Shown here piece by piece: positions 9,112 through 50,430 of a stretch of DNA of 64,000 bases. The notes under the pieces are model-generated. The model worked only from the letters and a program-made list of their open reading frames with translations, did no database searches and was not told the origin of the DNA. A program made the position numbers and the translations under genes. The number at the start of each line of letters is the position of its first letter. Position 1 is the stretch's first letter. The DNA lies in IMG/VR virus record IMGVR_UViG_3300024344_000001. One strand, given 5' to 3'. The DNA comes from a virus. Lineage: Duplodnaviria; Heunggongvirae; Uroviricota; Caudoviricetes.

Positions 9112-9516
9112 TTATCTTCTTCCTCCACAATCATTACACACATTGTACTTACCGTAAATGTGGTCTGCTCTTTTTTCGAACTCGTCGTGACACAGATTAC
9201 ACCTTACGGTCTTATACGTAGGGGCGTTCCTAACTCGTGCCGCTAACTTAATCTCAGGGGTATCAAATTCTTCCCCCTTAGACTCTGCTCCGTCATCTGT
9301 CCACTGGTTTCCCTGCCAAGCTACAGCTTCGTTCTTAGCCTTAATCTTTCTACTTGGAGCGATGAATTCAGACTGGTCCCTTTTTTGAACCGTTTCTGAT
9401 ACTCGTTCCTGTTCTTCTTCTACTTGTGCTTCCTGAACCATATTCTTCAGAAGTTCCGCCCTCTGATCATCAGTTAGTGAGTCTATAAATTCAGGTGATA
9501 GGTCAGCAAATTTCAT
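9112..9516 (-). CDS. hypothetical acidic protein with C-terminal zinc ribbon
   Basis: CNLCHDEF..CNDCGG at C-terminus. Confidence 0.45.
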   Translation of the reverse strand: MKFADLSPEFIDSLTDDQRAELLKNMVQEAQVEEEQERVSETVQKRDQSEFIAPSRKIKAKNEAVAWQGNQWTDDGAESKGEEFDTPEIKLAARVRNAPTYKTVRCNLCHDEFEKRADHIYGKYNVCNDCGGRR

Positions 9517-9998
9517 AGCCGTTTCCCCTTTTCGTTTAATAAGTCTATCTTTTTTCTTAGGTTGAAGTCCTTACTTGTAAGTGACGCGATCCTGGCCTTC
9601 GCCACTTCTCTGAACTGATCTAGTTTTACGGCGACCGTATTCTCTCTAATAAGCATCTGCTCTTTAAGTTCATACGGCCCGTATACATCGGTCAGATTAT
9701 GATACTCACGGGCAACCATACGTCTAATATGGTAATCACAATAGTCTATGACCACCTGTTGTTTAGCTTTCTGGCTGGCTACATGATCGAGGTAACTCAT
9801 AAGGGTGAGAGCATAGTTAAAGCACTCGTCCTGAGATAACTCCCTTAGTTGATCCATACTTAAAGACTCAGCTTCTCTGAAGTTGTCAAGCTGAACAGGA
9901 GCCGCTAAGTCTTTGTTCTCCAGATATTCGTCTACTCGTAATAGGAAAGACTCTAATCTGTCATCAGTCTCTGTATTAAATTTGTTTTCCCCAGTCAT
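9513..9998 (-). CDS. hypothetical protein (position suggests replication accessory or helicase loader)
   Basis: ORF between dnaB and the recA-like gene; no motif recognised. Confidence 0.4.
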   Translation of the reverse strand: MTGENKFNTETDDRLESFLLRVDEYLENKDLAAPVQLDNFREAESLSMDQLRELSQDECFNYALTLMSYLDHVASQKAKQQVVIDYCDYHIRRMVAREYHNLTDVYGPYELKEQMLIRENTVAVKLDQFREVAKARIASLTSKDFNLRKKIDLLNEKGKRL

Positions 9999-31201: not shown

Positions 31202-32782
31202 TTACTCATTGCTCTCAGTGACTTCCTTTACCTTTACTTTTTGCTTTTGCATTTGCTGTAGCATACCAGCCATTACCGCTGGGTCAAGGCTTGCACCTTC
31301 GCCCATAACAAGCACTTCTGGTCCTACACCTTCAAGTTCAGGTAGGTTGTTAATAAGGTTGTCAAGAATATAGAATCCGATACCGCCGTAGGCAGAAATC
31401 TTCTCTCTAACAGCTTCCGCTTCACCCTTAGCTCTACGGGCTTCAGCCTGACCCTCATTCTCTTCAGCTTCAATCTTGATCTTAGATTCTGTAAGGCGAG
31501 CCTGTTCCTTAGCGGCAGTACGGGCCTCAACAGTATCCTTCTCTACTTCCGCAGCAAGCTTCTGTTCCTCAAAAGCTTTAATCTGCTGTTTAGCAAGTTC
31601 CTGGTCAGTCTGAGTGGTAAGTAGTTCCTTACCTTCAGGTGTGCTATCAAGTCCAATATCAGCGATACGAACAGCGATAACATCTACCTTAAACTCAGCA
31701 ATAGCTTCACGTAGTTGTTCAGTAGCCTCAGTTTCTACTGTAGAACGAGAATTCAGGTAATCTAGGGCACTGGTATGTTCAGCGTTATTTCTGAAGATAC
31801 TTCGTACTGCGGGTAGAATTACCTTTGTTTCCAAAGTATCAAACCCATCCTTATCTAGATCTACGTCTGGTTCACCAATTTCTGATACAAGGTGAGGGGC
31901 ATTATCCTGCCTTACGGTTACCTCAACCCTAATATCAACGGGAAACTTATAACCATCGACGGTCTTAACTCCAATGGAGTGGTCAACTGTAGGGCGGTCA
32001 CTAGCACCCAACTGGGATGTACTGGTATAAGAGTAAACTCTCTTAGTAGTATTTACCTTAATCGGGTAGTAAGCCTCAGTATTGATATAATGAGTACCTG
32101 GGCCATACGGTGTATCCCAAATACCTACCTGACCAACTGGAACTAACTTACTAGTCGATACCGCTTCACCTTCGGCCTTAGTGCCGTGGTGAGACTGAAT
32201 AACCACACACTCATTCTGCTTGATAATAAGTGCTGGTTTTACCTCAACGGTGAATAGGTTAGGATTGTATGCGACAGTTTTACCAGCGGGAATAACTGTA
32301 ATCTGTGGACCTGCAAAACCTTTTGCTCCAAAGGTAGCACCATCCAACATGTCTTCTACAGAATCCCATTCATCAGCATAAGCCTGACCACTAAGTGCCT
32401 TACCGTCCTTAGCAGTTACCAATCCCATACTACCAGCAGGAATAGGCATGTTTGGGTTTTGTGATAGTTCATACTGCCACGGCCATAGACCAAAGTTCCA
32501 ACCTGGTCCCAATGTCGCAGCTTGCGGACCACGTTCGCCGTTAAAGGCTACTACGTGACCGCCTTGTAGTGGAGACCCAAACTTTGTTGAGACAATTCCA
32601 CGAGAGTCACCATCCACATAAAGGGCGGTCTGCCAACCGGTAAGTACGATAAACAAACCCGTAAACAAAAAGAGACCAAATCTACCAGGGCCAAGAATCT
32701 GTTTTGTAATGGGTACGAATGGTAGAACCAACGTAACCAATGCTAGAAACATAAAAGCCGCAAAAAACACTGTTGACATCAA
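31202..32782 (-). CDS. SPFH/band-7 (flotillin/prohibitin-like) membrane protein with coiled-coil tail
   Basis: N-terminal TM segments; SPFH core; long Ala/Glu/Lys/Gln-rich heptad C-terminus. Confidence 0.65.
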   Translation of the reverse strand: MMSTVFFAAFMFLALVTLVLPFVPITKQILGPGRFGLFLFTGLFIVLTGWQTALYVDGDSRGIVSTKFGSPLQGGHVVAFNGERGPQAATLGPGWNFGLWPWQYELSQNPNMPIPAGSMGLVTAKDGKALSGQAYADEWDSVEDMLDGATFGAKGFAGPQITVIPAGKTVAYNPNLFTVEVKPALIIKQNECVVIQSHHGTKAEGEAVSTSKLVPVGQVGIWDTPYGPGTHYINTEAYYPIKVNTTKRVYSYTSTSQLGASDRPTVDHSIGVKTVDGYKFPVDIRVEVTVRQDNAPHLVSEIGEPDVDLDKDGFDTLETKVILPAVRSIFRNNAEHTSALDYLNSRSTVETEATEQLREAIAEFKVDVIAVRIADIGLDSTPEGKELLTTQTDQELAKQQIKAFEEQKLAAEVEKDTVEARTAAKEQARLTESKIKIEAEENEGQAEARRAKGEAEAVREKISAYGGIGFYILDNLINNLPELEGVGPEVLVMGEGASLDPAVMAGMLQQMQKQKVKVKEVTESNE

Positions 32783-32838: not shown

Positions 32839-33951
32839 TCAACCCTTAATGTTGATAATTGGTTTAACGTGATGGGTAACGTCTACCAATTCCTTCTGTT
32901 GTTCCATGACAGCAAAAATATCCTTGTAGGCGAACGGCGATTCGTCCAGGGTATCCTTATCTACCTTAGCACGAACACCCTCCATAGTCTTCTTGAAATC
33001 CTGAACATCTAATTCTCTCTTAGCGGCCTTACGTCCTAGGACGCGACCAGCACCGTGAGAAGAAGAGTGCATGGATTCTTCGTTCCCTTTACCTACTACT
33101 ATGAACGAACCGTCTCTCATGTTACCAGGAATTACGCCTTTCATCCCTTTTTCAGCATGAGTGGCACCCTTACGGTGAATCCAGCGGCCATCTTTCAATT
33201 CCGCATGATTATGATTACGGTTGATAAACGAATTCGAATCTGAAGACACACCTCCCAATCTACGGTCTAATACCGCTACTACAGCTTCAATCATAGCTGC
33301 ACGGTTAGCCAAGGCATAAGTAAGAGCATAGTTTAGGTCCACGATGTAATCCTGACCCAACTGTGAGTCTACATCAAGAGCACCATCTAGCCCCTCACCC
33401 TTAGCGATTTTCATATACTCACCCGCAATACCATGACCTAGGCCACGAGATCCTGAGTGAATAACGATCCAAATTTTATCATGCTCGTCATAGCCGATTT
33501 CAATGAAGTGGTTTCCACCACCCAATGTACCTAACTGTCTACGGGCATTACGGCGACCGTACATTTCTTCAGCAATCGCCGTATGTGGAAGTTTTTCGTC
33601 TACCCACACCTTGTCTTCCTTATGAGTATTAAAACCAACTGGAATATCACGGTAGATGTTCTGAAATAGGTAGTCGGCTCTTGCTTCAACGTCAGTTCTA
33701 TCGGCGTCTGTGCATATGCTGCTCATCCCGCAGCCTATATCGAAACCAACCCAAGCGGGGTATATTACCTCTCTTGTTGCGAATACTGAGCCAATAGGTG
33801 CATCATATCCAGTATGGGCGTCAGGCATCATAGCCCCTTGCTCAACAAATGGAGAATCCATACAATTATCAAACTGCTCCATAGCGGAGTCTTCAACAAC
33901 TTCTGCAAATATCTTTGATGGTTTCATTTCTCTCTTCTCCCTCTTATTCAC
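32839..33951 (-). CDS. rtcB: RtcB RNA 3'-phosphate/5'-OH ligase
   Basis: Motifs MPDAHTGYD, NRNHNHAE, HSSSHGAGR. Confidence 0.85.
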   Translation of the reverse strand: MNKREKREMKPSKIFAEVVEDSAMEQFDNCMDSPFVEQGAMMPDAHTGYDAPIGSVFATREVIYPAWVGFDIGCGMSSICTDADRTDVEARADYLFQNIYRDIPVGFNTHKEDKVWVDEKLPHTAIAEEMYGRRNARRQLGTLGGGNHFIEIGYDEHDKIWIVIHSGSRGLGHGIAGEYMKIAKGEGLDGALDVDSQLGQDYIVDLNYALTYALANRAAMIEAVVAVLDRRLGGVSSDSNSFINRNHNHAELKDGRWIHRKGATHAEKGMKGVIPGNMRDGSFIVVGKGNEESMHSSSHGAGRVLGRKAAKRELDVQDFKKTMEGVRAKVDKDTLDESPFAYKDIFAVMEQQKELVDVTHHVKPIINIKG

Positions 33952-34506: not shown

Positions 34507-34531
34507 TGGAGACGACGGGATTCGAACCCGT
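34507..34531 (-). pseudogene. tRNA 3'-fragment (acceptor 3' strand + T-arm) with no matching 5' half
   Basis: ggagacg + acggg-attcgaa-cccgt; no complementary 5' acceptor found within 150 nt. Confidence 0.3.
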
Positions 34532-34847
34532 GTGTTGATTAGCAATCATAATAACTTCTACGTGTGTAGGTATGTGCCACATACCAGAGGATAGTCTTCG
34601 CCAGGCGGGTCTATCATACCTTGTCCCTCATGGGCACGGCGATTAAGTCGCTACTCTCGTCTGTTATCCGATATATTCTACGATTGGGTAAAAAGGCTCG
34701 CAGAGAAGCCCGCAGCTTACGCTGCCATTAGTACAGATGTTTTTGCATCTATTGTTCGATCTATTTTTTAACTGGCCCTTAGATCAACCAGTACACGCGA
34801 TCATTACTCTCTACTATCAGTCGATTCCAAAACGTCCCCGTTATTTT

Positions 34848-39800: not shown

Positions 39801-39873
39801 AGAAGACAATGGGACTCGAACCCATGACACACGAGGTTAGAACTCGCTGCTCTGCCAACTGAGCTATGTCTTC
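39801..39873 (-). tRNA. amber suppressor tRNA (anticodon CUA)
   Basis: Acceptor gaagaca/tgtcttc 7/7; T-arm atggg-actcgaa-cccat; D stem gctc/gagc; anticodon stem acgag/ctcgc; plus-strand loop gtTAGaa gives RNA loop UUCUAAC. Confidence 0.6.
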
Positions 39874-40897: not shown

Positions 40898-41581
40898 ATG
40901 TCAAAAACCGCTATTTTGTGTGACTTTTGCAGCAAAACCTTTGAAAAAAGGAATGTTGATATTTCCAGAACAGTCAGTCACTTTTGTTCTAAAGAATGTT
41001 TTAAGAAGGGAAAACGTAAACGGATCATTACTAAGTGTGATTACTGTAGTAAAGATGTTGAAAAAGTACCGTCAGAGATTTCCGATCATAATTTTTGTAA
41101 TAAATCTTGTTCTGCCTCTTATAATAATTCAGTATCCCCTAAGAGGGAGAAAGGGGTTCATTATGAAAATGATAATAATGGAAATACATATAAGGTAAAA
41201 AGACGAGAAAAGAAATGTATGACTTGTATGCGATCTATGAGTCATAAACATAAGAAATTTTGCTCTCATTCCTGTTATAGTCAAGATAGGCGAAATAAGG
41301 CATTAGCACAAATTAAATCTTCTGGACTACTTACCAATAATAATACACATAGATGTTCACCTTCTATGAAGTCTTGTCTAGCCGAACTAAATGGCTCAAA
41401 CTGTTCTATCTGTAACCAAGAACCATTTTGGAATGGTAAACCAATGATAATGATTTTAGATCATATCAATGGTATTTCGAACGACTGGCGTTTAGAAAAC
41501 GTGAGACTTGTTTGTCCTAACTGTGATACACAGCTTGATACCTTTAAGTCCCGTAATAAAAACGGTAATCGTCCAAGATAA
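40898..41581 (+). CDS. HNH-family homing endonuclease with multiple zinc ribbons
   Basis: Repeated CxxC..C..C modules; C-terminal CSICN...DHINGISND..CPNCD. Confidence 0.6.
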   Translation: MSKTAILCDFCSKTFEKRNVDISRTVSHFCSKECFKKGKRKRIITKCDYCSKDVEKVPSEISDHNFCNKSCSASYNNSVSPKREKGVHYENDNNGNTYKVKRREKKCMTCMRSMSHKHKKFCSHSCYSQDRRNKALAQIKSSGLLTNNNTHRCSPSMKSCLAELNGSNCSICNQEPFWNGKPMIMILDHINGISNDWRLENVRLVCPNCDTQLDTFKSRNKNGNRPR

Positions 41582-46607: not shown

Positions 46608-46782
46608 CATAAAACCATTGATGAAGCTTCGGTACATCCTTTATGGGCGATATTGGTACATTTTGTACCGTCCCTAAGTCTGTTGGAGCATTCTCTATGA
46701 TGCCTTTCACAAACTCCATCAATTAAGGCTTCATTTTTACATGGTCCGATATATGGTTCATCATATCCACATTTCATGTTCA
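46608..46782 (-). CDS. 58-aa Cys-rich small protein (below ORF-track cutoff)
   Basis: MNMKCGYDEPYIGPCKNEALIDGVCERHHRECSNRLRDGTKCTNIAHKGCTEASSMVL read by eye. Confidence 0.3.
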
Positions 46783-46800
46783 TATCCTCACGCCATGTAA

Positions 46801-46890
46801 GTAGGAGTGCAGGGAATCGAACCCTGTTCTCGGATTTATCAGATCCTAAACCGCTTATAAAACGGCTGCCGCACCATTTGGCCTCACTCC
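46801..46890 (-). tRNA. tRNA, type-II length; anticodon loop reads UAU (or Ile GAU if the first hairpin is the anticodon arm)
   Basis: Acceptor aggagtg/cactccc; T-arm caggg-aatcgaa-ccctg; hairpin ggat-ttatcag-atcc; second stem accgc/acggc with loop ttataaa. Confidence 0.4.
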
Positions 46891-46904
46891 CGTCTCATGT
46901 ATTG

Positions 46905-46932
46905 TATTATACTCGATCACGGCGTTTTGTCA
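46905..46932 (-). promoter_or_regulatory. sigma70 consensus promoter (TTGACA-N16-TGTATAAT), first of a tandem pair
   Basis: rc: cttgacaaaacgccgtgatcgagtataatac. Confidence 0.65.
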
Positions 46933-46996
46933 AGCGATTCTTCCGAAGATTCCAAAAAAAATCCGCCGATCCGCTTTTCTCGTCTCCACGTCATGT

Positions 46997-47024
46997 ATTA
47001 TACACGAAGTGGCCCGTTTGTCAA
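46997..47024 (-). promoter_or_regulatory. sigma70 consensus promoter (TTGACA-N16-TGTGTATAAT), second of the tandem pair
   Basis: rc: cttgacaaacgggccacttcgtgtataatac. Confidence 0.7.
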
Positions 47025-47063
47025 GCGATTTTCGGCGGCTTTTTCAGAATTTTTCTGGAATTG

Positions 47064-47546
47064 CTATTGAGGCGGAATCACTTTGGTTTCTACCTTATAG
47101 TCAAATTCTCGAAGTTCAATCTGTGGAGCCGCTGGTTCTGGTGCTGCGGGGGCAGGTTGCATAGCTTGCAATACACCCCATAAGATGCCACCACCCACGG
47201 CCATCGCCCCTACTGTCTGTAGAAGTCCACCACCATTCTTGATCTCTGTTCTCGTTATATCATCAGCAATTATCATGCCGTCTGAGTCCTCTATATCAGA
47301 GGTTGGACCTTCTTTTTTCACGCCAAACACCTTTTCATCTTGGTAACGCTGGTTAGTTTTCCTTTCATGGTCCAGCAGTTTATACATATCATCAGTAAAA
47401 GCAGCTTCGTATCCAGTATGAAGCTTGCTACTCTTATCCAATCTCTGTTTTGCGGCCTCACCAACAGGTGTTTCCGAGTCCTTCCTCAATTGTCTTCGAA
47501 CAAATTTGGGTAACAGGTTTCTCATGTTTCTCTTTTTTAGTTTCAT
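47064..47546 (-). CDS. hypothetical protein with C-terminal hydrophobic/Ala-Pro-rich segment
   Basis: LLQTVGAMAVGGGILWGVLQAM TM-like segment; PAPAAPEPAAP. Confidence 0.4.
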   Translation of the reverse strand: MKLKKRNMRNLLPKFVRRQLRKDSETPVGEAAKQRLDKSSKLHTGYEAAFTDDMYKLLDHERKTNQRYQDEKVFGVKKEGPTSDIEDSDGMIIADDITRTEIKNGGGLLQTVGAMAVGGGILWGVLQAMQPAPAAPEPAAPQIELREFDYKVETKVIPPQ

Positions 47547-47845
47547 TCTTGAGCCACCTCATCATCCTTTGGGCATTCCTTGTCCGGGTGTATGGAGTCA
47601 TATCCGTATTTAAGAAATTCCGCTTGACGTTGTTCCAGTAGAGAACGGTAGTCGTTGTTGTCTTCTGGTACAGACCTAACAACCATGTTCATATTCTCAA
47701 CTTCCAGCCTTACTTCATCATACTCTACTACCTGACCATCTTTGATTAGAGAGATACTCCCCACTTCCATCTTGTTCTGGCCACCAACAGCTAAGAGGAT
47801 TTCTACATGTTCCTCTTTACTAAGTGTAATTGTTTGTCTTGGCAT
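47543..47845 (-). CDS. hypothetical protein
   Basis: ORF overlapping neighbours by 4 nt (operon). Confidence 0.4.
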   Translation of the reverse strand: MPRQTITLSKEEHVEILLAVGGQNKMEVGSISLIKDGQVVEYDEVRLEVENMNMVVRSVPEDNNDYRSLLEQRQAEFLKYGYDSIHPDKECPKDDEVAQE

Positions 47846-47865
47846 ACTTTCCTATCCTCGTATAT

Positions 47866-47895
47866 GAAAAAAGGGGGCGGCGTAAGCCACCCCCC
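47866..47895 (-). terminator. Rho-independent terminator
   Basis: gggggcgg-cgtaag-ccaccccc hairpin followed by a U-run on the minus strand. Confidence 0.55.
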
Positions 47896-47924
47896 TAAAC
47901 TGGTAAATATTACTTTACCGTTTC

Positions 47925-48137
47925 TTAGGTAGGTGTTCCACCCTGGCCTGCGGCCTGCTGTGAACGTGTCTGCCCACCACCGGATTCACCGATAATGCGA
48001 TGAGTAAGACCTTCACGGTATCCAACCTTACCTTCTAGCATACCTAGTCTACCCTGTTCCATTGCGAATGCATGACCCTGAGTAGAAGTAACGATAACAT
48101 GTTCCATTGCCTCTGCGGCTCTTTCACTTGCTGCCAT
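47925..48137 (-). CDS. small Gly/Gln-rich protein
   Basis: ORF with RBS; C-terminus GESGGGQTRSQQAAGQGG. Confidence 0.4.
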   Translation of the reverse strand: MAASERAAEAMEHVIVTSTQGHAFAMEQGRLGMLEGKVGYREGLTHRIIGESGGGQTRSQQAAGQGGTPT

Positions 48138-48155
48138 TTTAATTCTCCTGTTTAA

Positions 48156-49478
48156 TTATTTGGAGGTACGTACCACCTCATATCTCTCAAGTTCTACAAC
48201 CACTGTAGACCCGGATACAAGGTCATTATATGAATCATCAGGCGTAGATTCATTCTTTCTTTGAATAATAACATTGACTGTGCCTGGTGGACCTACTGGT
48301 CCTACGCCGCCTGTGGCACCATCTACACCGTCTTCGCCATGTTCTCCGTCCTCTCCCTTAAGTTGAGTACCGAAGTTTTTGACGATAGTTGCTGCTAGCT
48401 TATCAATATCGATTGATAGCTGACCTGAATTCCCATCTTCACATTTACATCCAGAATCGCCGTCACACTTACAGTCGGCATCATTACCATGAAGACCATC
48501 TAAACCGTCTTCTCCATCGACGCCATCTTTACCATCTTCACCTTTGAATTCATCAGCGTTCTCAGTAAAGTATCTTCTTACTTCTGCCTGTACGGCCTGT
48601 TCGACTTCTGACCTAACAATATTCTGGACAACTGTGTCATTCTTAAGAATGTTCCTAATAATGACTGTCACCTGATCTTTATCTACATCAGGAGTAGGTT
48701 GAGGTTTAGGTCTTCTCTCAGGTCTAGGAACAGGATCTGGTCCACGCTCTCTGTATCTTTCGATATTAGGTGGTCTAAATAGACCCGGTGGAGTATAGCG
48801 TTCATATTCCCTGTATTGACCTGGTGGAATGTTTCTTTGTGGTAATTGTTGTGGGCAAGATCCGCCAGGACAGATCTGAGTATACGTTTGACAGTATTGA
48901 CTATTACGACCATACACTCTTCTTAGAAGCTGGCAACAATCTGCTGTTGACACAAATCTAGTATTGTTGCTATCATCATAAGCGTAAATGATACCAGCTA
49001 CGTAATTCTTCTTTTCGCCCTCAACAACAATAGCTCCACCACTATCGCCCTGAATGACGTGTTGTTTGTTTTTTGCTACGACAACGTCTTCGTAAAACAC
49101 AGCATCAAAACAGAAGTTACGGCGATCTGAATAACCACAGACTTCTACAGGTACCCTATTTGGTACATCTTCTACAAGTCTTGTAGTTTTCCAATTACCC
49201 TTCTTAACTTCAAAAGAGATAAGATCTGACTTATCACTACGTTCTACATTTATTGCTCTATGCCAATCATTGCCATCATGAATGTATAAAGCAGATGTAT
49301 TCTCTATAACATGCTTATTGGATAAGAAGACATAAGAGTCATTTTGAAGAGTTCCAACACATGTGCCGCTTGCCTTATTTCTGAACCCGTCCCCAATAGC
49401 CTGAACGGGGTATGTCTCCGCTATAGCTACTGACGGTACCAGAGCGAGCAAGAGCAATGCTAGTAATTGTCTAAACAT
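48156..49478 (-). CDS. secreted trypsin-like serine protease with C-terminal collagen-like (G-x-y) repeats
   Basis: Signal peptide MFRQLLALLLLALVPSVAIA; active-site GDSGG; SNKHV His region; PRPERRPKPQP linker; GEDGKDGVDGEDGLDGLHG...GEDGEHGEDGVDGATGGVGPVGPPG. Start placed at 49478 because the upstream ATG at 49598 lies inside the promoter. Confidence 0.6.
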   Translation of the reverse strand: MFRQLLALLLLALVPSVAIAETYPVQAIGDGFRNKASGTCVGTLQNDSYVFLSNKHVIENTSALYIHDGNDWHRAINVERSDKSDLISFEVKKGNWKTTRLVEDVPNRVPVEVCGYSDRRNFCFDAVFYEDVVVAKNKQHVIQGDSGGAIVVEGEKKNYVAGIIYAYDDSNNTRFVSTADCCQLLRRVYGRNSQYCQTYTQICPGGSCPQQLPQRNIPPGQYREYERYTPPGLFRPPNIERYRERGPDPVPRPERRPKPQPTPDVDKDQVTVIIRNILKNDTVVQNIVRSEVEQAVQAEVRRYFTENADEFKGEDGKDGVDGEDGLDGLHGNDADCKCDGDSGCKCEDGNSGQLSIDIDKLAATIVKNFGTQLKGEDGEHGEDGVDGATGGVGPVGPPGTVNVIIQRKNESTPDDSYNDLVSGSTVVVELERYEVVRTSK

Positions 49479-49602
49479 ATTTTCTGGATATCCGATAGAA
49501 GTTAACCCTAAAAAGGAATCGTGCCTCCTAGCCGACGCCAGTAACATACTAGCAACGCATAAAAAAGCCCGCTTTTCGTGCATTTCTAGCGTTTCCACTA
49601 GT

Positions 49603-49635
49603 ATTATACACTAAAACGGGCGTGAGATCAGAAAA
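49603..49635 (-). promoter_or_regulatory. promoter-like TGTGTATAAT upstream of the protease operon
   Basis: rc tagtgtataatac. Confidence 0.4.
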
Positions 49636-49679
49636 AAAACGAATTTTTTGAGCGGAAGGAAGGTATATTTACCGAAAAT

Positions 49680-49708
49680 GTATTTTTGTTGAAATTATTG
49701 TGTATAAT
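49680..49708 (+). promoter_or_regulatory. plus-strand promoter-like element (TGTGTATAAT)
   Basis: attgtgtataatat at 49698-49710. Confidence 0.35.
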
Positions 49709-49716
49709 ATACCAAG

Positions 49717-49799
49717 CGGAAGGTGGAGTAATCGAAACTCTGACGTGTTAACGCCCCCCGAATATTCCAAATTCGTTTGCCACCTTGGCGGCACCTTCC
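49717..49799 (-). tRNA. tRNA-Ser (GGA), type II
   Basis: Acceptor ggaaggt/accttcc perfect; T-arm ggagt-aatcgaa-actct; anticodon stem cgaat/attcg, loop codon TCC. Confidence 0.55.
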
Positions 49800-49824
49800 A
49801 GACTATAACCAATAGGAGACCTCA

Positions 49825-50430
49825 ATGAAAGTAAAATGTTTACACTGCGAAACTATCTTTTCTAAAAAACCTTATGAAATAAAGCGGAGTCCAAATCACT
49901 ATTGTTCAAGAAAGTGTTGGAATTCATATGAGTCTTGTCACAAGACAAATAAAATTATTGTTATATGTGCAGAATGTGGGGCTACGACTAAAAGAAGACC
50001 GAAATCAGTACAGGATGCTGATAACAACTTCTGTTCCAGATCATGTTCCGTATCTTACAACAATAAAAACAAATCTAAAGGAACGAAGCGGTCCAAACTA
50101 GAGTATTGGATAGAAAACCAGCTTACATCAAGATATCCAACTATAGATATTCACTTCAATCAGAAGGATGCTATTGATTCGGAACTTGATATATATGTAC
50201 CTTCATTAAAACTCGCATTTGAACTCAACGGTATCTTTCATTATGAGCCAATCTTCGGCAAAGATAAACTATCTCAGATTCAAAATAATGATAACCGTAA
50301 ATTTCAAGCCTGCTTAGATCAGGAAATTGAGTTGTGTATCATTGATACCTCACAACAAAAATACTTCAAACCTAAATCTTCACAAAGGTTTTTAGATATT
50401 ATTTGCAATATCATCGATACAAAACTTTAA
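49825..50430 (+). CDS. zinc-ribbon + DUF559/Vsr-like endonuclease (free-standing homing endonuclease candidate)
   Basis: CLHCET..CSRKC; CAECG; C-terminal ELDIYVPSLKLAFELNGIFHYE resembles 9976-10380. Confidence 0.5.
   Translation: MKVKCLHCETIFSKKPYEIKRSPNHYCSRKCWNSYESCHKTNKIIVICAECGATTKRRPKSVQDADNNFCSRSCSVSYNNKNKSKGTKRSKLEYWIENQLTSRYPTIDIHFNQKDAIDSELDIYVPSLKLAFELNGIFHYEPIFGKDKLSQIQNNDNRKFQACLDQEIELCIIDTSQQKYFKPKSSQRFLDIICNIIDTKL

What the first reader, a model, noticed from the sequence alone, without database searches (positions are those of the whole stretch)
47064..49478. Operon encoding a secreted trypsin-like protease with collagen-like tail plus three small proteins
The 440-aa ORF has a Sec signal peptide, a chymotrypsin-fold catalytic GDSGG and a His region, a Pro/Arg-rich linker, and 25 or more G-x-y triplets rich in Glu/Asp (GEDGKDGVDGEDG...GPVGPPG). 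It is co-transcribed, between a promoter at 49603 and a terminator at 47866, with a Gly/Gln-rich 70-aa protein and two further small proteins, one with a membrane anchor. A phage-encoded, exported protease with collagen-like trimerisation repeats is unusual. It could be a virion fibre protease, a depolymerase-like host-envelope protease, or an exclusion factor.
Basis: partly seen in the sequence, partly recalled or inferred. Interest (0 to 1): 0.6.

Follow-up and report, generated by a model that had tools for sequence, protein, structure and literature searches.

The report
Exported stalked protease cassette in phages
A large uncultured phage carries a four-gene cassette, shared by hundreds of other uncultured phages but by no sequenced isolate, that most likely exports a trypsin-type protease on a collagen-like stalk into the host envelope; what the cassette does is unknown.

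Summary
ORF 48156-49478 (-) encodes a 440-aa protein with these parts:
- a Sec-type signal peptide
- a chymotrypsin-fold protease domain (H56/D85/S146, invariant in 36 relatives; model pLDDT about 95; closest to DegS/DegQ/DegP/MarP)
- a Cys-rich knot and a Pro/Arg linker
- helical segments, two short G-x-y blocks, and a small C-terminal domain

Two claims need correcting. There are about 15-16 G-x-y triplets, not 25 or more. The terminator lies between gene 2 and gene 3, so it splits the four genes.

The main new result is that the four genes form a conserved cassette. The order protease, P70, P100, P160 recurs in more than ten independent metagenomic phage contigs. A second variant keeps the protease and the P160-type membrane protein. 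P70 is nearly invariant (70-93% identity, at least 231 clusters) and under strong purifying selection. P160 is a tail-anchored membrane protein.

In relatives the cassette often sits beside a DUF1353 phospholipase A2, an exported SNase-like nuclease and tailspike-type beta-helix enzymes. It has no match in 50,697 phage genomes and one in 185,579 species genomes.

Best reading: an exported, probably trimeric protease that attacks host envelope proteins, most likely to help envelope breakdown and progeny release. A virion fibre is unlikely. Superinfection exclusion and a DegS/RseA-like switch remain open. Function is inferred, not shown.

The parts
49601..49609 (-). GTATAATAC promoter-type -10 motif upstream of the protease gene ('class 2': no -35 element)
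   Evidence: 9 copies on the minus strand against 0.76 expected. Aligning the 9 sites shows 4 with a GGTTGACAAAC -35 element and 5, including this one, without. The sigma-70 consensus scan did not list this site.
48156..49478 (-). Protease gene, 440 aa plus stop (alternative in-frame starts at 49547, 49583, 49598)
   Evidence: Family of 64 representatives at E<=1e-3.
49419..49478 (-). Signal peptide, aa 1-20 (MFRQLLALLLLALVPSVAIA, predicted cleavage AIA|E)
   Evidence: Read from the sequence. An N-terminal hydrophobic segment is present in 58/64 relatives, and an A-x-A|xTYPV-like junction in 39/64. The model starts beta-strand 1 at residue 22.
48879..49418 (-). Chymotrypsin-fold serine protease domain, aa 21-200. 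His56 = 49311-49313, Asp85 = 49224-49226, Ser146 = 49041-49043
   Evidence: Pfam Trypsin 25.2 bits against a 20.6-bit cut-off. Profile search of PDB: Deg2/Deg9 at 7e-10, MarP at 3e-9. AF2 pLDDT about 95. Foldseek top hits are DegQ, DegS and DegP; TM 0.70 on DegS. Triad invariant.
48669..48878 (-). Cys-rich knot (CPGGSCP) and Pro/Arg-rich linker with the conserved YERxxP...PPxIERY motif, aa 201-270
   Evidence: C208 invariant in 36/36; P231 in at least 90%. Modelled as a weak beta-hairpin at 222-245.
48546..48668 (-). Helical segment preceding the first G-x-y block, aa 271-311 (possible trimerising coiled coil)
   Evidence: Helices 267-280 and 282-306 in the model. The pattern 'helix ending in L(R/K)G, then G-x-y' recurs in relatives.
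48480..48542 (-). Collagen-like block 1, aa 313-333: GED GKD GVD GED GLD GLH GND (7 triplets)
   Evidence: DNA period-9 repeat at 48495-48542. Pfam Collagen stretch 313-352.
48357..48479 (-). Spacer with CKC...CKC and a second short helix, aa 334-374
   Evidence: Helix 358-374. These four Cys are not conserved in relatives.
48279..48356 (-). Collagen-like block 2, aa 375-400: GED GEH GED GVD GAT GGV GPV GPP G (8-9 triplets)
   Evidence: G375 and G378 are conserved in at least 90% of relatives.
48159..48278 (-). C-terminal small domain, aa 401-440 (VNVIIQRK...VVVELERY), related to the 'RVVIVDG..DDETYxPGEPxVLD' tail of relatives
   Evidence: Low model confidence as a monomer.
47925..48137 (-). 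P70: 70-aa protein, one long helix plus a Gly/Gln-rich tail; nearly invariant across phages
   Evidence: 231 clusters at 70-93% identity. Alignment. 30-32 synonymous against 10-15 non-synonymous codon differences. AF2 helix 2-51.
47871..47896 (-). Intrinsic terminator hairpin plus U run, between P70 and P100
   Evidence: Fold -30.5 kcal/mol, z = -4.3.
47543..47845 (-). P100: 100-aa acidic protein with no hydrophobic segment; conserved cassette member
   Evidence: 34% identical to the L008 counterpart, E 3e-12. Aligned with L008, L009 and L011. HMM hits in the independent loci L014 and L017.
47064..47546 (-). P160: 160-aa tail-anchored membrane protein. Basic, helical N-terminal domain of about 100 aa; Gly/Ala-rich hydrophobic segment about aa 105-128 (47163-47234); Pro-rich C-terminal tail of about 30 aa. 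Its start overlaps the P100 stop (ATGA)
   Evidence: HMM hits in L009-L017. Profile-profile link to the clade-B membrane protein, E 5e-5; L014 and L015 ORFs hit both HMMs.

Best explanation
The four genes are a self-contained, conserved phage cassette that places a stalked serine protease in the host cell envelope.

Proposed mechanism (steps marked 'inferred' are not shown by any test):
1. The operon is transcribed from a -10-only phage promoter. Most transcripts stop at the hairpin after P70, and read-through supplies P100 and P160 (inferred).
2. The pre-protease is exported by Sec. Cleavage at AIA|E frees Glu21, which begins the first beta-strand, so the enzyme matures only outside the cytoplasm. 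This resembles the way signal-peptide removal activates staphylococcal Spl proteases (inferred).
3. Conserved cysteines form disulfides (inferred).
4. The two helical segments and two acidic G-x-y blocks zip three chains into a stalk of roughly 20 nm or more, carrying three HtrA-like protease heads (inferred).
5. P160, a tail-anchored inner-membrane protein, is the membrane partner. Its short periplasmic tail may dock the C-terminal domain of the stalk (speculative).
6. P70 and P100 act on the cytoplasmic side (roles unknown).
7. The heads cleave host envelope proteins. In relatives this would work alongside a phospholipase A2, an exported nuclease and free beta-helix depolymerases. The most likely purpose is to help dismantle the envelope and release progeny.
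For: Shown:
- The protease domain is an intact chymotrypsin fold. The triad is invariant in 36 sequences at 23-39% identity. Pfam Trypsin scores above its cut-off. The profile hits Deg2, Deg9, MarP, DegP and DegS with H, D and S aligned. Model pLDDT is about 95 and Foldseek probability is 1.0 to DegQ, DegS, DegP and MarP.
- The export signature is conserved: an N-terminal hydrophobic segment in 58/64 relatives and an A-x-A|xTYPV-like junction in 39/64. Cysteines are conserved (C208 in 36/36, C40 in 31/36, C114 in 27/36, C123 in 26/36). In L011 the protease is instead a type II membrane protein with a transmembrane segment at 78-94.
- The stalk is conserved: G-x-y runs in 53/64 relatives, median 11 triplets.
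- Gene order is conserved. Protease, P70, (P100), P160 occur in that order in L008, L009/L010, L011/L012, L013, L014, L015, L016, L017, L019/L020 and L021/L022. A second variant has protease, B_GNIQ, an acidic protein and a C-terminal-TM protein in L002-L007. The two membrane proteins are linked by hhalign (E 5e-5) and by ORFs that hit both HMMs.
- P70 is under strong purifying selection.
- Degradative enzymes are recurrent neighbours. DUF1353 occurs in L002, L003 (weak, E 1e-4), L006-L009, L013, L019 and L021. DUF1353 is a TtaP-type phospholipase A2, with reported fusions to lysozyme, endonuclease and protease domains (PMC11525133). SNase-like proteins carrying a signal peptide or anchor occur in L002 and L006/L007. 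Beta-helix proteins of 312-388 aa match only the central part of tailspike profiles.
- Small TM or TM-plus-coiled-coil proteins lie next to the cassette in L003, L005, L009, L013 and L017.
- In L002 and L004 the cassette sits directly upstream of the terminase genes.
- No canonical endolysin family is recorded among called genes in any of these loci.
Against: - No experiment or direct test links the cassette to lysis. The adjacent TM proteins match no holin or spanin family convincingly; the best is an Rz-like spanin at E 0.002 among other coiled-coil hits.
- In this window the cassette is not near lysis or structural genes. It lies among tRNAs, a homing-endonuclease-like ORF and replication, nucleotide and translation genes. 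It uses a promoter type also found in front of a LAGLIDADG endonuclease.
- No DUF1353 or SNase gene lies within the 64 kb.
- A constitutively exported active protease has no obvious timing control.
- HtrA-like proteases are not known to cleave peptidoglycan.
- The extreme conservation of P70 is unexplained.
- Trimerisation, disulfides, the cleavage site and P160 docking are all inferred. The stalk and C-terminal domain have low model confidence as a monomer.
- In L014 and L017 the protease ORF, read with the standard code, lacks the signal peptide unless an in-frame TGA is read through.
Confidence: 0.4

Rival explanations
1. Superinfection exclusion or receptor destruction. The exported protease, held at the inner membrane by P160, degrades outer-membrane or periplasmic proteins that other phages need as receptors, or degrades incoming ejection proteins. 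This would protect the infected cell from superinfection and keep progeny from being wasted on cell debris.
For: The layout in the window is moron-like: its own promoter motif, an internal terminator, and a position among tRNAs and a homing-endonuclease-like ORF. The cassette's genomic position varies between phages, as expected for an accessory cassette. Periplasmic and membrane location is typical of known exclusion proteins (established knowledge: T4 Imm/Sp, T5 Llp). Exported SNase-like neighbours could attack incoming DNA.
Against: Exclusion genes are usually fast-evolving and lineage-specific. Here the cassette order is kept across phages with 42-58% GC, and P70 is 70-93% identical in at least 231 clusters. 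Only one hit was found in 185,579 species genomes, so it is not a common prophage-borne protective gene. PADLOC gives only generic protease-domain matches.
Confidence: 0.2
2. Trans-envelope proteolytic switch, analogous to DegS/RseA. The real substrate of the exported HtrA-like protease is the periplasmic tail of P160. Cleavage would release or destabilise P160's cytoplasmic domain and free P100 and/or P70. These would then act on a conserved host machine to time late events.
For: P160 has the topology of an RseA-type anti-sigma factor: a cytoplasmic N-domain of about 100 aa, one transmembrane segment and a short periplasmic tail. The protease is most like DegS, DegP and DegQ. The four genes are inherited as a unit, with two cytoplasmic and two envelope components. 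The near-invariance of P70 would fit binding to a universally conserved host target. The window encodes a sigma70_r2 protein and has -10-only promoters.
Against: P160 has no sequence similarity to anti-sigma domains, and P70 and P100 have none to any known regulator. A collagen-like stalk of 20 nm or more is unnecessary to reach a membrane-proximal tail. The frequent linkage with lipase, nuclease and depolymerase genes fits bulk degradation better.
Confidence: 0.12
3. Virion-associated fibre or penetration enzyme. The collagen-like protein is a head or tail fibre whose protease head digests a proteinaceous surface layer during adsorption, and the small proteins are assembly factors or ejection proteins.
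For: The collagen region matches PHROG tail-fibre families (E 1e-8 to 1e-4). In relatives the cassette lies between TerL and portal (L009, L019) or between portal and prohead protease/capsid (L013). It is followed by LamG_3 and beta-helix genes, which are typical of receptor-binding proteins.
Against: The PHROG matches cover only the low-complexity G-x-y part (residues about 265-415). A cleavable Sec signal or signal anchor is conserved in 58/64 relatives, and the conserved cysteines imply folding outside the cytoplasm, whereas tailed-phage virions assemble in the cytoplasm (established knowledge). The window shows no structural genes in 64 kb. The neighbouring beta-helix proteins lack the N-terminal particle-binding part of tailspikes.
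Confidence: 0.08
4. Peptidoglycan-directed lysin. The exported protease is itself the phage's cell-wall endopeptidase, cutting peptide cross-links, and stands in for a canonical endolysin. P160 would be its holin-like trigger.
For: No lysozyme, amidase or peptidase endolysin family is recorded in any of the 10-20 kb loci around the cassette. Secreted S1-fold bacteriolytic endopeptidases exist (alpha-lytic protease relatives of Lysobacter; from my own knowledge, not tested here). P160 has a Gly-zipper-like transmembrane segment, as many holins do.
Against: Only parts of the genomes were seen, so absence of an endolysin is not established. Similarity is to the HtrA/MarP type, not to alpha-lytic proteases. 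P160's topology (large cytoplasmic N-domain, tail anchor) is unlike known holin classes.
Confidence: 0.1

Closest known systems
HtrA-family periplasmic proteases (DegS, DegP, DegQ; plant Deg2/Deg9), MEROPS S1C
   Same: Chymotrypsin fold with H-D-S in the same order and similar spacing. These are the best sequence-profile and structure matches. They act in the periplasm and function as trimers.
   Different: No PDZ domain was detected. In HtrA the protease domain itself mediates trimerisation; here a coiled-coil/collagen stalk is the likely trimeriser. This protein also has a Cys-rich knot, a Pro-rich linker and a small C-terminal domain, and it is phage-encoded within a four-gene cassette.
MarP (Rv3671c) of Mycobacterium tuberculosis, a membrane-anchored periplasmic serine protease
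   Same: A stand-alone chymotrypsin-fold domain without PDZ, anchored or exported through N-terminal hydrophobic segments and dependent on a disulfide. Profile E 3e-9; Foldseek TM 0.62-0.65.
   Different: MarP has four N-terminal transmembrane helices and no stalk. It is a host stress-resistance enzyme, not a phage gene.
Staphylococcal Spl / V8 / Esp proteases
   Same: Secreted chymotrypsin-fold enzymes. Esp is among the fold matches. For SplB, exact signal-peptide removal creates the active N-terminus (from my own knowledge). This parallels the conserved A-x-A|ETYPV junction directly before strand 1.
   Different: They are monomeric with no stalk, have a different specificity pocket and are chromosomal operons. 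N-terminal activation was not tested here.
Bacterial and phage collagen-like proteins (Scl1/Scl2, Lcl, BclA; collagen repeats in phage tail fibres)
   Same: Short G-x-y runs rich in charged residues, flanked by helical or globular trimerisation modules. Weak matches to Scl1, Lcl and Scl2 models and to tail-fibre PHROGs.
   Different: The runs are very short (7 and 8-9 triplets) and fall below the Pfam Collagen cut-off. Asp dominates the Y position. The protein carries an enzymatic head and a signal peptide, and has no LPXTG anchor or virion-attachment domain.
Collectin/ficolin-MASP and C1q-C1r/C1s complexes
   Same: A functional analogy only: a collagen stalk that presents trypsin-fold serine proteases.
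   Different: In complement the stalk and the protease are separate proteins and are eukaryotic. Homology is limited to the generic domains.
Phage envelope-disrupting accessory enzymes (mycobacteriophage LysB lipase; spanins) and TtaP/DUF1353 phospholipase A2
   Same: Non-muralytic enzymes that attack envelope layers other than peptidoglycan. DUF1353 is a frequent neighbour of the cassette and is a PLA2 (PMC11525133).
   Different: No protease is known in this role. The window itself has no DUF1353 gene. A lysis role for the cassette is inferred only.

Membership tests
Chymotrypsin-fold serine proteases (clan PA, family S1) | Catalytic triad His-Asp-Ser in that order, with Ser in a GDSGG-type motif | tested here: met
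   H56, D85 and S146 (GDSGG 144-148) are invariant in 36 sequences. They align with the H, D and S of Deg2 in the profile alignment.
Chymotrypsin-fold serine proteases (clan PA, family S1) | Two-beta-barrel fold | tested here: met
   AF2 model pLDDT about 95 over residues 21-200. Foldseek probability 1.0; TM 0.70 normalised to the DegS protease domain. Side-chain geometry of the triad could not be measured because no coordinates are accessible.
Chymotrypsin-fold serine proteases (clan PA, family S1) | Score above the curated Pfam threshold (PF00089) | tested here: met
   25.2 bits against a 20.6-bit cut-off, but only the C-terminal barrel (residues 103-173) is matched. Relatives carry PF13365 Trypsin_2.
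HtrA family (S1C: DegP/DegQ/DegS) | One or two C-terminal PDZ domains after the protease domain | tested here: not met
   No PDZ family appears in Pfam or NCBIfam scans at E<=1. The C-terminal half is linker, helices and G-x-y blocks. It is therefore HtrA-like in its protease domain but not a member of the family.
Collagen triple-helix repeat proteins (PF01391) | Long uninterrupted G-x-y repeats scoring above the Pfam gathering threshold | tested here: inconclusive
   25.6 bits against a 27.2-bit cut-off. There are two runs of 7 and 8-9 triplets. Relatives have up to 20 consecutive triplets. Triple-helix formation was not tested.
Sec-exported proteins with a type I signal peptide | Positively charged n-region, hydrophobic h-region, small residues at -3 and -1 | tested here: met
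   MFR / QLLALLLLALVPSV / AIA|E, read from the sequence. The pattern is conserved in relatives. This is a heuristic only; no SignalP run and no experiment.
Phage tail-fibre / virion fibre proteins | Encoded in the structural module, with no export signal and a virion-attachment domain | tested here: not met
   In the window the gene lies among tRNA, replication and nucleotide genes. A signal peptide is present. PHROG tail-fibre hits cover only the G-x-y part.
Canonical phage lysis cassette (holin, endolysin, spanin) | Recognisable holin, muralytic endolysin and spanin genes adjacent to each other | tested here: not met
   The four proteins have no match to lysis families in PHROGs, Pfam or NCBIfam. 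Neighbouring TM proteins in relatives give only marginal or no matches. A lysis-like function is not excluded.
Known anti-phage defence systems (PADLOC) | Match of the component proteins to a defence-system model set | tested here: not met
   Only generic protease-domain similarity to LmuA and RT-protease models (E 2.6e-4 and 1.2e-3 for the window protein). P70, P100 and P160 have no hits.

The most novel reading that the evidence does not exclude
The cassette could be a phage-encoded trans-envelope proteolytic device of a kind not yet described. An exported HtrA-like protease on a collagen/coiled-coil stalk would work with a tail-anchored membrane protein (RseA-like topology) and two cytoplasmic proteins. 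One of these, P70, is almost invariant across hundreds of phage lineages, perhaps because it binds a universal host machine. Together they would couple events in the envelope to a cytoplasmic decision such as the timing of late development or lysis.
Probability: 0.12. Interest if true: 0.85.

Novelty: new variant of a known kind. Interest (0 to 1): 0.6.

Why it matters
Phage proteins that act from the periplasmic side of the host envelope are few and mostly small: endolysins, spanins and exclusion proteins. An exported protease on a collagen-like stalk, inherited together with three partner proteins, would be a new tool in that set.

The scale adds weight. The cassette was found in more than ten independent contigs, and P70 alone forms at least 231 sequence clusters. 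Yet it has no match in 50,697 deposited phage genomes. This suggests a whole group of environmental phages shares a step of infection that has never been studied.

If the protease helps dismantle the envelope, it would add a proteolytic route to the known ways phages breach the outer layers. If it is a switch or an exclusion device, it would be a new mechanism in either field. P70 is a compact, nearly invariant 70-residue protein and would be a good candidate for finding a conserved host target.

Tried and rejected
- Sequenced phages. blastn and tblastn of the region and of the protease against the INPHARED collection gave no match. tblastn of P70 also gave none. No characterised phage can be used as a guide.
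- Word-index protein search with the protease N-terminal 311 aa found only the protein itself. The exhaustive HMMER scan was needed to find the family.
- The search for related loci with the protease alignments failed for lack of conserved stretches. A closer subset worked only on viral contigs.
- Homology between the clade-A and clade-B small proteins. P70 against the 'GNIQ' protein and P100 against the acidic protein showed no signal by hhalign. Only positional equivalence can be claimed for them.
- PDB sequence and profile searches for P70, P100 and P160 gave nothing significant. A weak SP-A match for P100 (E 0.0065) was treated as chance.
- PADLOC gave only generic protease-domain hits.
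- Rfam on 46700-50000 found only the tRNA. No known RNA element lies in the 5' leader.
- Literature searches for phage, collagen-like and serine protease terms, and for lysis cassette with trypsin-like, found nothing relevant.
- Holin and spanin assignment of neighbouring TM proteins was not supported.
- The capsid protein of L013 was used to place these phages. It gave only about 35-39% identity to diverse phages, and the gene map of one of them (Curvibacter phage PCA1) shows no comparable cassette.
- Stop-codon recoding in the window was considered because of a CTA-anticodon tRNA. It was set aside because ORFs are long under the standard code, and three of the four cassette genes end in TAA or TGA.

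Full report
**What is at the coordinates**

The minus strand between 49609 and 47064 carries four consecutive ORFs:
- a large ORF ending at 48156, giving 440 aa from the ATG at 49478
- a 70-aa ORF (47925-48137)
- a 100-aa ORF (47543-47845)
- a 160-aa ORF (47064-47546), whose start overlaps the previous stop (ATGA)

In-frame starts for the large ORF also exist at 49547, 49583 and 49598. A public gene call used 49583 (475 aa). The closest relatives begin a few residues before the hydrophobic segment, so I use 49478.

A GTATAATAC motif lies at 49601-49609. The motif occurs nine times on the minus strand of the window against 0.76 expected. Four copies have a perfect GGTTGACAAAC -35 element. Five copies, including this one, have none.

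A strong intrinsic terminator (11-bp stem, U run, z = -4.3) lies at 47896-47871, between the 70-aa and 100-aa genes. The last two genes need read-through.

**The large protein**

Residues 1-20 (MFRQLLALLLLALVPSVAIA) have the n/h/c layout of a Sec signal peptide, with Ala at -3 and -1.

Residues 21-200 form a chymotrypsin-fold domain:
- Pfam Trypsin scores 25.2 bits against a 20.6-bit cut-off, but only over the C-terminal barrel.
- A profile of 36 family members finds Deg2/Deg9 (E 7e-10), MarP/Rv3671c (3e-9) and DegP, DegQ and DegS in the PDB. The His, Asp and Ser columns align.
- An AlphaFold2 model built on the family alignment has pLDDT about 95 over this domain.
- Its best structural matches are DegQ, DegS, DegP, MarP and Esp, with TM 0.70 on the DegS protease domain.
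- H56, D85 and G144-D-S-G-G148 are invariant in 36 sequences that are only 23-39% identical to the query.

The domain is therefore very probably an active protease rather than a pseudo-enzyme.

After the protease domain come:
- a Cys-rich knot (CPGGSCP; C208 invariant)
- a Pro/Arg linker (17 Pro and 10 Arg in 70 residues) containing a conserved YERxxP...PPxIERY motif
- a helical segment of about 40 residues
- G-x-y block 1 (7 triplets)
- a CKC...CKC spacer with a short helix
- G-x-y block 2 (8-9 triplets)
- a 40-residue C-terminal domain

Pfam Collagen scores 25.6 bits, just under its 27.2-bit threshold. No PDZ domain is present, so the protein is HtrA-like only in its catalytic domain.

**A family, not a singleton**

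The word-indexed search found only the protein itself. An exhaustive HMMER scan of 1.84 billion representatives found 64 proteins at E<=1e-3, nine of them at E<=1e-30. Among these 64:
- 58 have an N-terminal hydrophobic segment
- 58 have GDSGG
- 53 have G-x-y runs (median 11 triplets, maximum 26)
- 28 end in a shared 'DDETYxPGEPxVLD'-type tail
- 6 end instead in a thioredoxin-like CxxC domain

Thirty-nine have a small-x-small junction directly before the conserved mature N-terminus (ETYPV). In the model this N-terminus begins beta-strand 1. Several cysteines are conserved. Together these features argue for export and folding outside the cytoplasm.

**The cassette**

The closest relative (P0002, 41% identity over the matched stretch in the phmmer scan; 36-39% in the alignments) lies on contig L008. 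Its neighbours are, in order:
- a DUF1353 gene upstream
- two tandem copies of a 70-aa gene, 84-86% identical to the window's
- a 99-aa gene (34% identity, E 3e-12)
- the start of a gene 78% identical over 27 residues to part of the N-terminal region of the window's 160-aa protein

Searching with the 70-aa protein (P70) returned 231 clusters at 70-93% identity. Codon comparison shows 30-32 synonymous-only differences against 10-15 non-synonymous ones.

Contexts of five P70 relatives, three IMG/VR hits and the single genome hit all show the order protease, P70, (P100), P160. HMMs built from some loci recover the genes in independent loci.

In L011 the protease (type II membrane protein) and the collagen-like stalk are separate genes, and P70 follows the stalk gene.

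A more distant set of contigs (L002-L007) has a second variant: protease, a protein of about 100 aa ('GNIQ'), a small acidic protein, and a 140-175-aa protein with a C-terminal Gly/Ala-rich hydrophobic segment. The membrane proteins of the two variants are linked by profile-profile comparison (E 5e-5) and by ORFs in L014 and L015 that hit both HMMs. The other small proteins show no detectable similarity between variants.

P70 is modelled as one long helix (residues 2-51) followed by a disordered Gly/Gln tail. P160 has a basic helical N-terminal domain of about 100 residues, one hydrophobic segment, and a Pro-rich tail of about 30 residues.

**Genomic company**

The window itself is the replication, nucleotide and translation region of a contig of about 180 kb. 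It holds a DNA polymerase, DnaB, a UvsX-like protein, RNR, primase, dCMP deaminase, PhoH, RtcB, an RF-1-domain protein, a sigma70_r2 protein, 29 tRNA genes and a tmRNA gene (30 ARAGORN calls). It has no structural or lysis genes. It also has no DUF1353 or SNase gene.

In relatives the cassette sits in varied positions:
- directly upstream of TerS/TerL (L002, L004)
- between TerL and portal (L009, L019)
- between portal and prohead protease/capsid (L013)
- after replication genes (L021)

Recurrent neighbours are:
- DUF1353, shown in 2024 to be a phospholipase A2 (TtaP), with reported fusions to lysozyme, endonuclease and protease domains (PMC11525133)
- SNase-like proteins, two of three with a signal peptide or anchor
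- beta-helix proteins of 312-388 aa that match only the central part of tailspike profiles
- LamG_3 proteins
- small proteins with one transmembrane segment, some followed by a coiled coil

No lysozyme, amidase or peptidase endolysin family is recorded in any of these loci.

**How it most likely works**

Shown: an intact protease fold and triad; a conserved export signature and conserved cysteines; a conserved stalk; conserved gene order; strong purifying selection on P70; the terminator.

Inferred:
- Sec export with cleavage at AIA|E, so that the enzyme matures only outside the cytoplasm
- disulfide formation
- trimerisation through the two helices and the acidic G-x-y blocks

Using standard rises per residue (alpha-helix 0.15 nm, collagen 0.29 nm), the helices and G-x-y blocks add up to about 20 nm. 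The Pro-rich linker could add more. That is on the scale of a periplasm. P160 would be the inner-membrane partner, and P70 and P100 would act in the cytoplasm.

I judge the most likely role to be proteolysis of host envelope proteins to help envelope breakdown and progeny release. The reason is the cassette's company: lipid-, DNA- and polysaccharide-degrading enzymes and small membrane proteins, often next to the packaging genes. My confidence in that specific role is about 0.4. My confidence in the more general statement, an exported active protease that is not a virion fibre, is about 0.7.

The rivals are:
- superinfection exclusion or receptor destruction (0.2)
- a DegS/RseA-like proteolytic switch with P160 as substrate (0.12)
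- a peptidoglycan-directed lysin (0.1)
- a virion fibre (0.08)

The near-invariance of P70 is not explained by any of them.

**Comparison with known systems and novelty**

The catalytic domain belongs to the S1 chymotrypsin fold and resembles HtrA and MarP. It fails the HtrA membership test because it has no PDZ domain. The G-x-y blocks resemble bacterial and phage collagen-like repeats but fall under the curated threshold. It fails the tail-fibre test (signal peptide, context) and matches no lysis or defence family.

Stand-alone trypsin-like peptidases are known in phages; the BFVD hits include one from an uncultured Caudovirales phage and Rhizobium phage AF3 HtrA. None of the BFVD matches examined showed this architecture or cassette.

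The cassette has no match in 50,697 INPHARED genomes. It appears once in 185,579 species genomes, on a 46.6-kb contig binned into a 'Ca. Binatia' MAG. I found no literature on it.

I rate it a new variant of a known kind. The enzyme class is familiar. The fusion to a stalk and the conserved four-gene cassette are not described.

Noticed in passing
L014:7057 and L017:8891 (relatives, not the window): In two relatives the protease ORF is interrupted by an in-frame TGA just after a signal-peptide-like segment ('...AAAQCPT[TGA]RAAPQ...' and '...ARAQSGFS[TGA]PTCPVSP...'). In both cases the TGA sits where homologues have a Cys of a CxxC-like motif, giving CxxU / UxxC. This is a candidate for selenocysteine or programmed read-through in a phage-encoded exported protease.
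   Followed up: partly
window 3972, 29880, 46904, 46995 (class 1); 14086, 23274, 44914, 49601, 63250 (class 2), all minus strand: Two promoter classes share the -10 motif GTATAATAC. Class 1 has a perfect GGTTGACAAAC -35 element and precedes the DNA polymerase gene and tRNA genes. Class 2 has no -35 element and precedes a LAGLIDADG endonuclease, the protease cassette and unknown genes. The window also encodes a sigma70_r2-domain protein.
   Followed up: partly
window 28632-53193, minus strand: ARAGORN tRNA genes and a tmRNA gene (34507-34839, tag AKTSVLMAA). One tRNA has a CTA anticodon and looks like an amber suppressor (39801-39873). Several tRNAs are unusually long at 87-92 nt (His, Asn, Ile-tat, Pro), which may mean introns. 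An RtcB ligase (32839-33951) and an RF-1-domain protein are encoded nearby.
   Followed up: no
window 49825-50430 (+): This is the only plus-strand gene near the cassette. It encodes 201 aa with N-terminal zinc-finger-like CxxC pairs (weak zf-FCS match) and lies between the cassette promoter and tRNA-Ile. A similar plus-strand zf-FCS ORF lies at 40898-41581. They may be homing-endonuclease-like mobile genes.
   Followed up: no
L008:1582-1794 and 1860-2072: The closest relative carries two tandem copies of the P70 gene, 84% and 86% identical to the window's copy.
   Followed up: partly
P0026, P0033, P0039, P0044, P0058, P0061 (family members): Six protease family members replace the usual C-terminal small domain with a thioredoxin/glutaredoxin-like module ('YFTSTKGCPNC...GYPITVIDLDP...GVPRIHVL'). 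This suggests a redox function tethered to the stalk.
   Followed up: no
L011:8324-9325 and 9461-9997: In one lineage the protease and the collagen-like stalk are separate genes. The protease has an N-terminal coiled coil, a transmembrane segment at 78-94 and then the trypsin-like domain. The 178-aa stalk protein has no evident signal peptide. The fusion seen in the window is therefore not universal.
   Followed up: partly
window 31202-32782 (-): A 526-aa protein with an SPFH/Band 7 domain (Pfam 4e-12; PHROG 'lipoprotein') is encoded in the tRNA region. This is an unusual membrane-scaffold-type gene for a phage.
   Followed up: no
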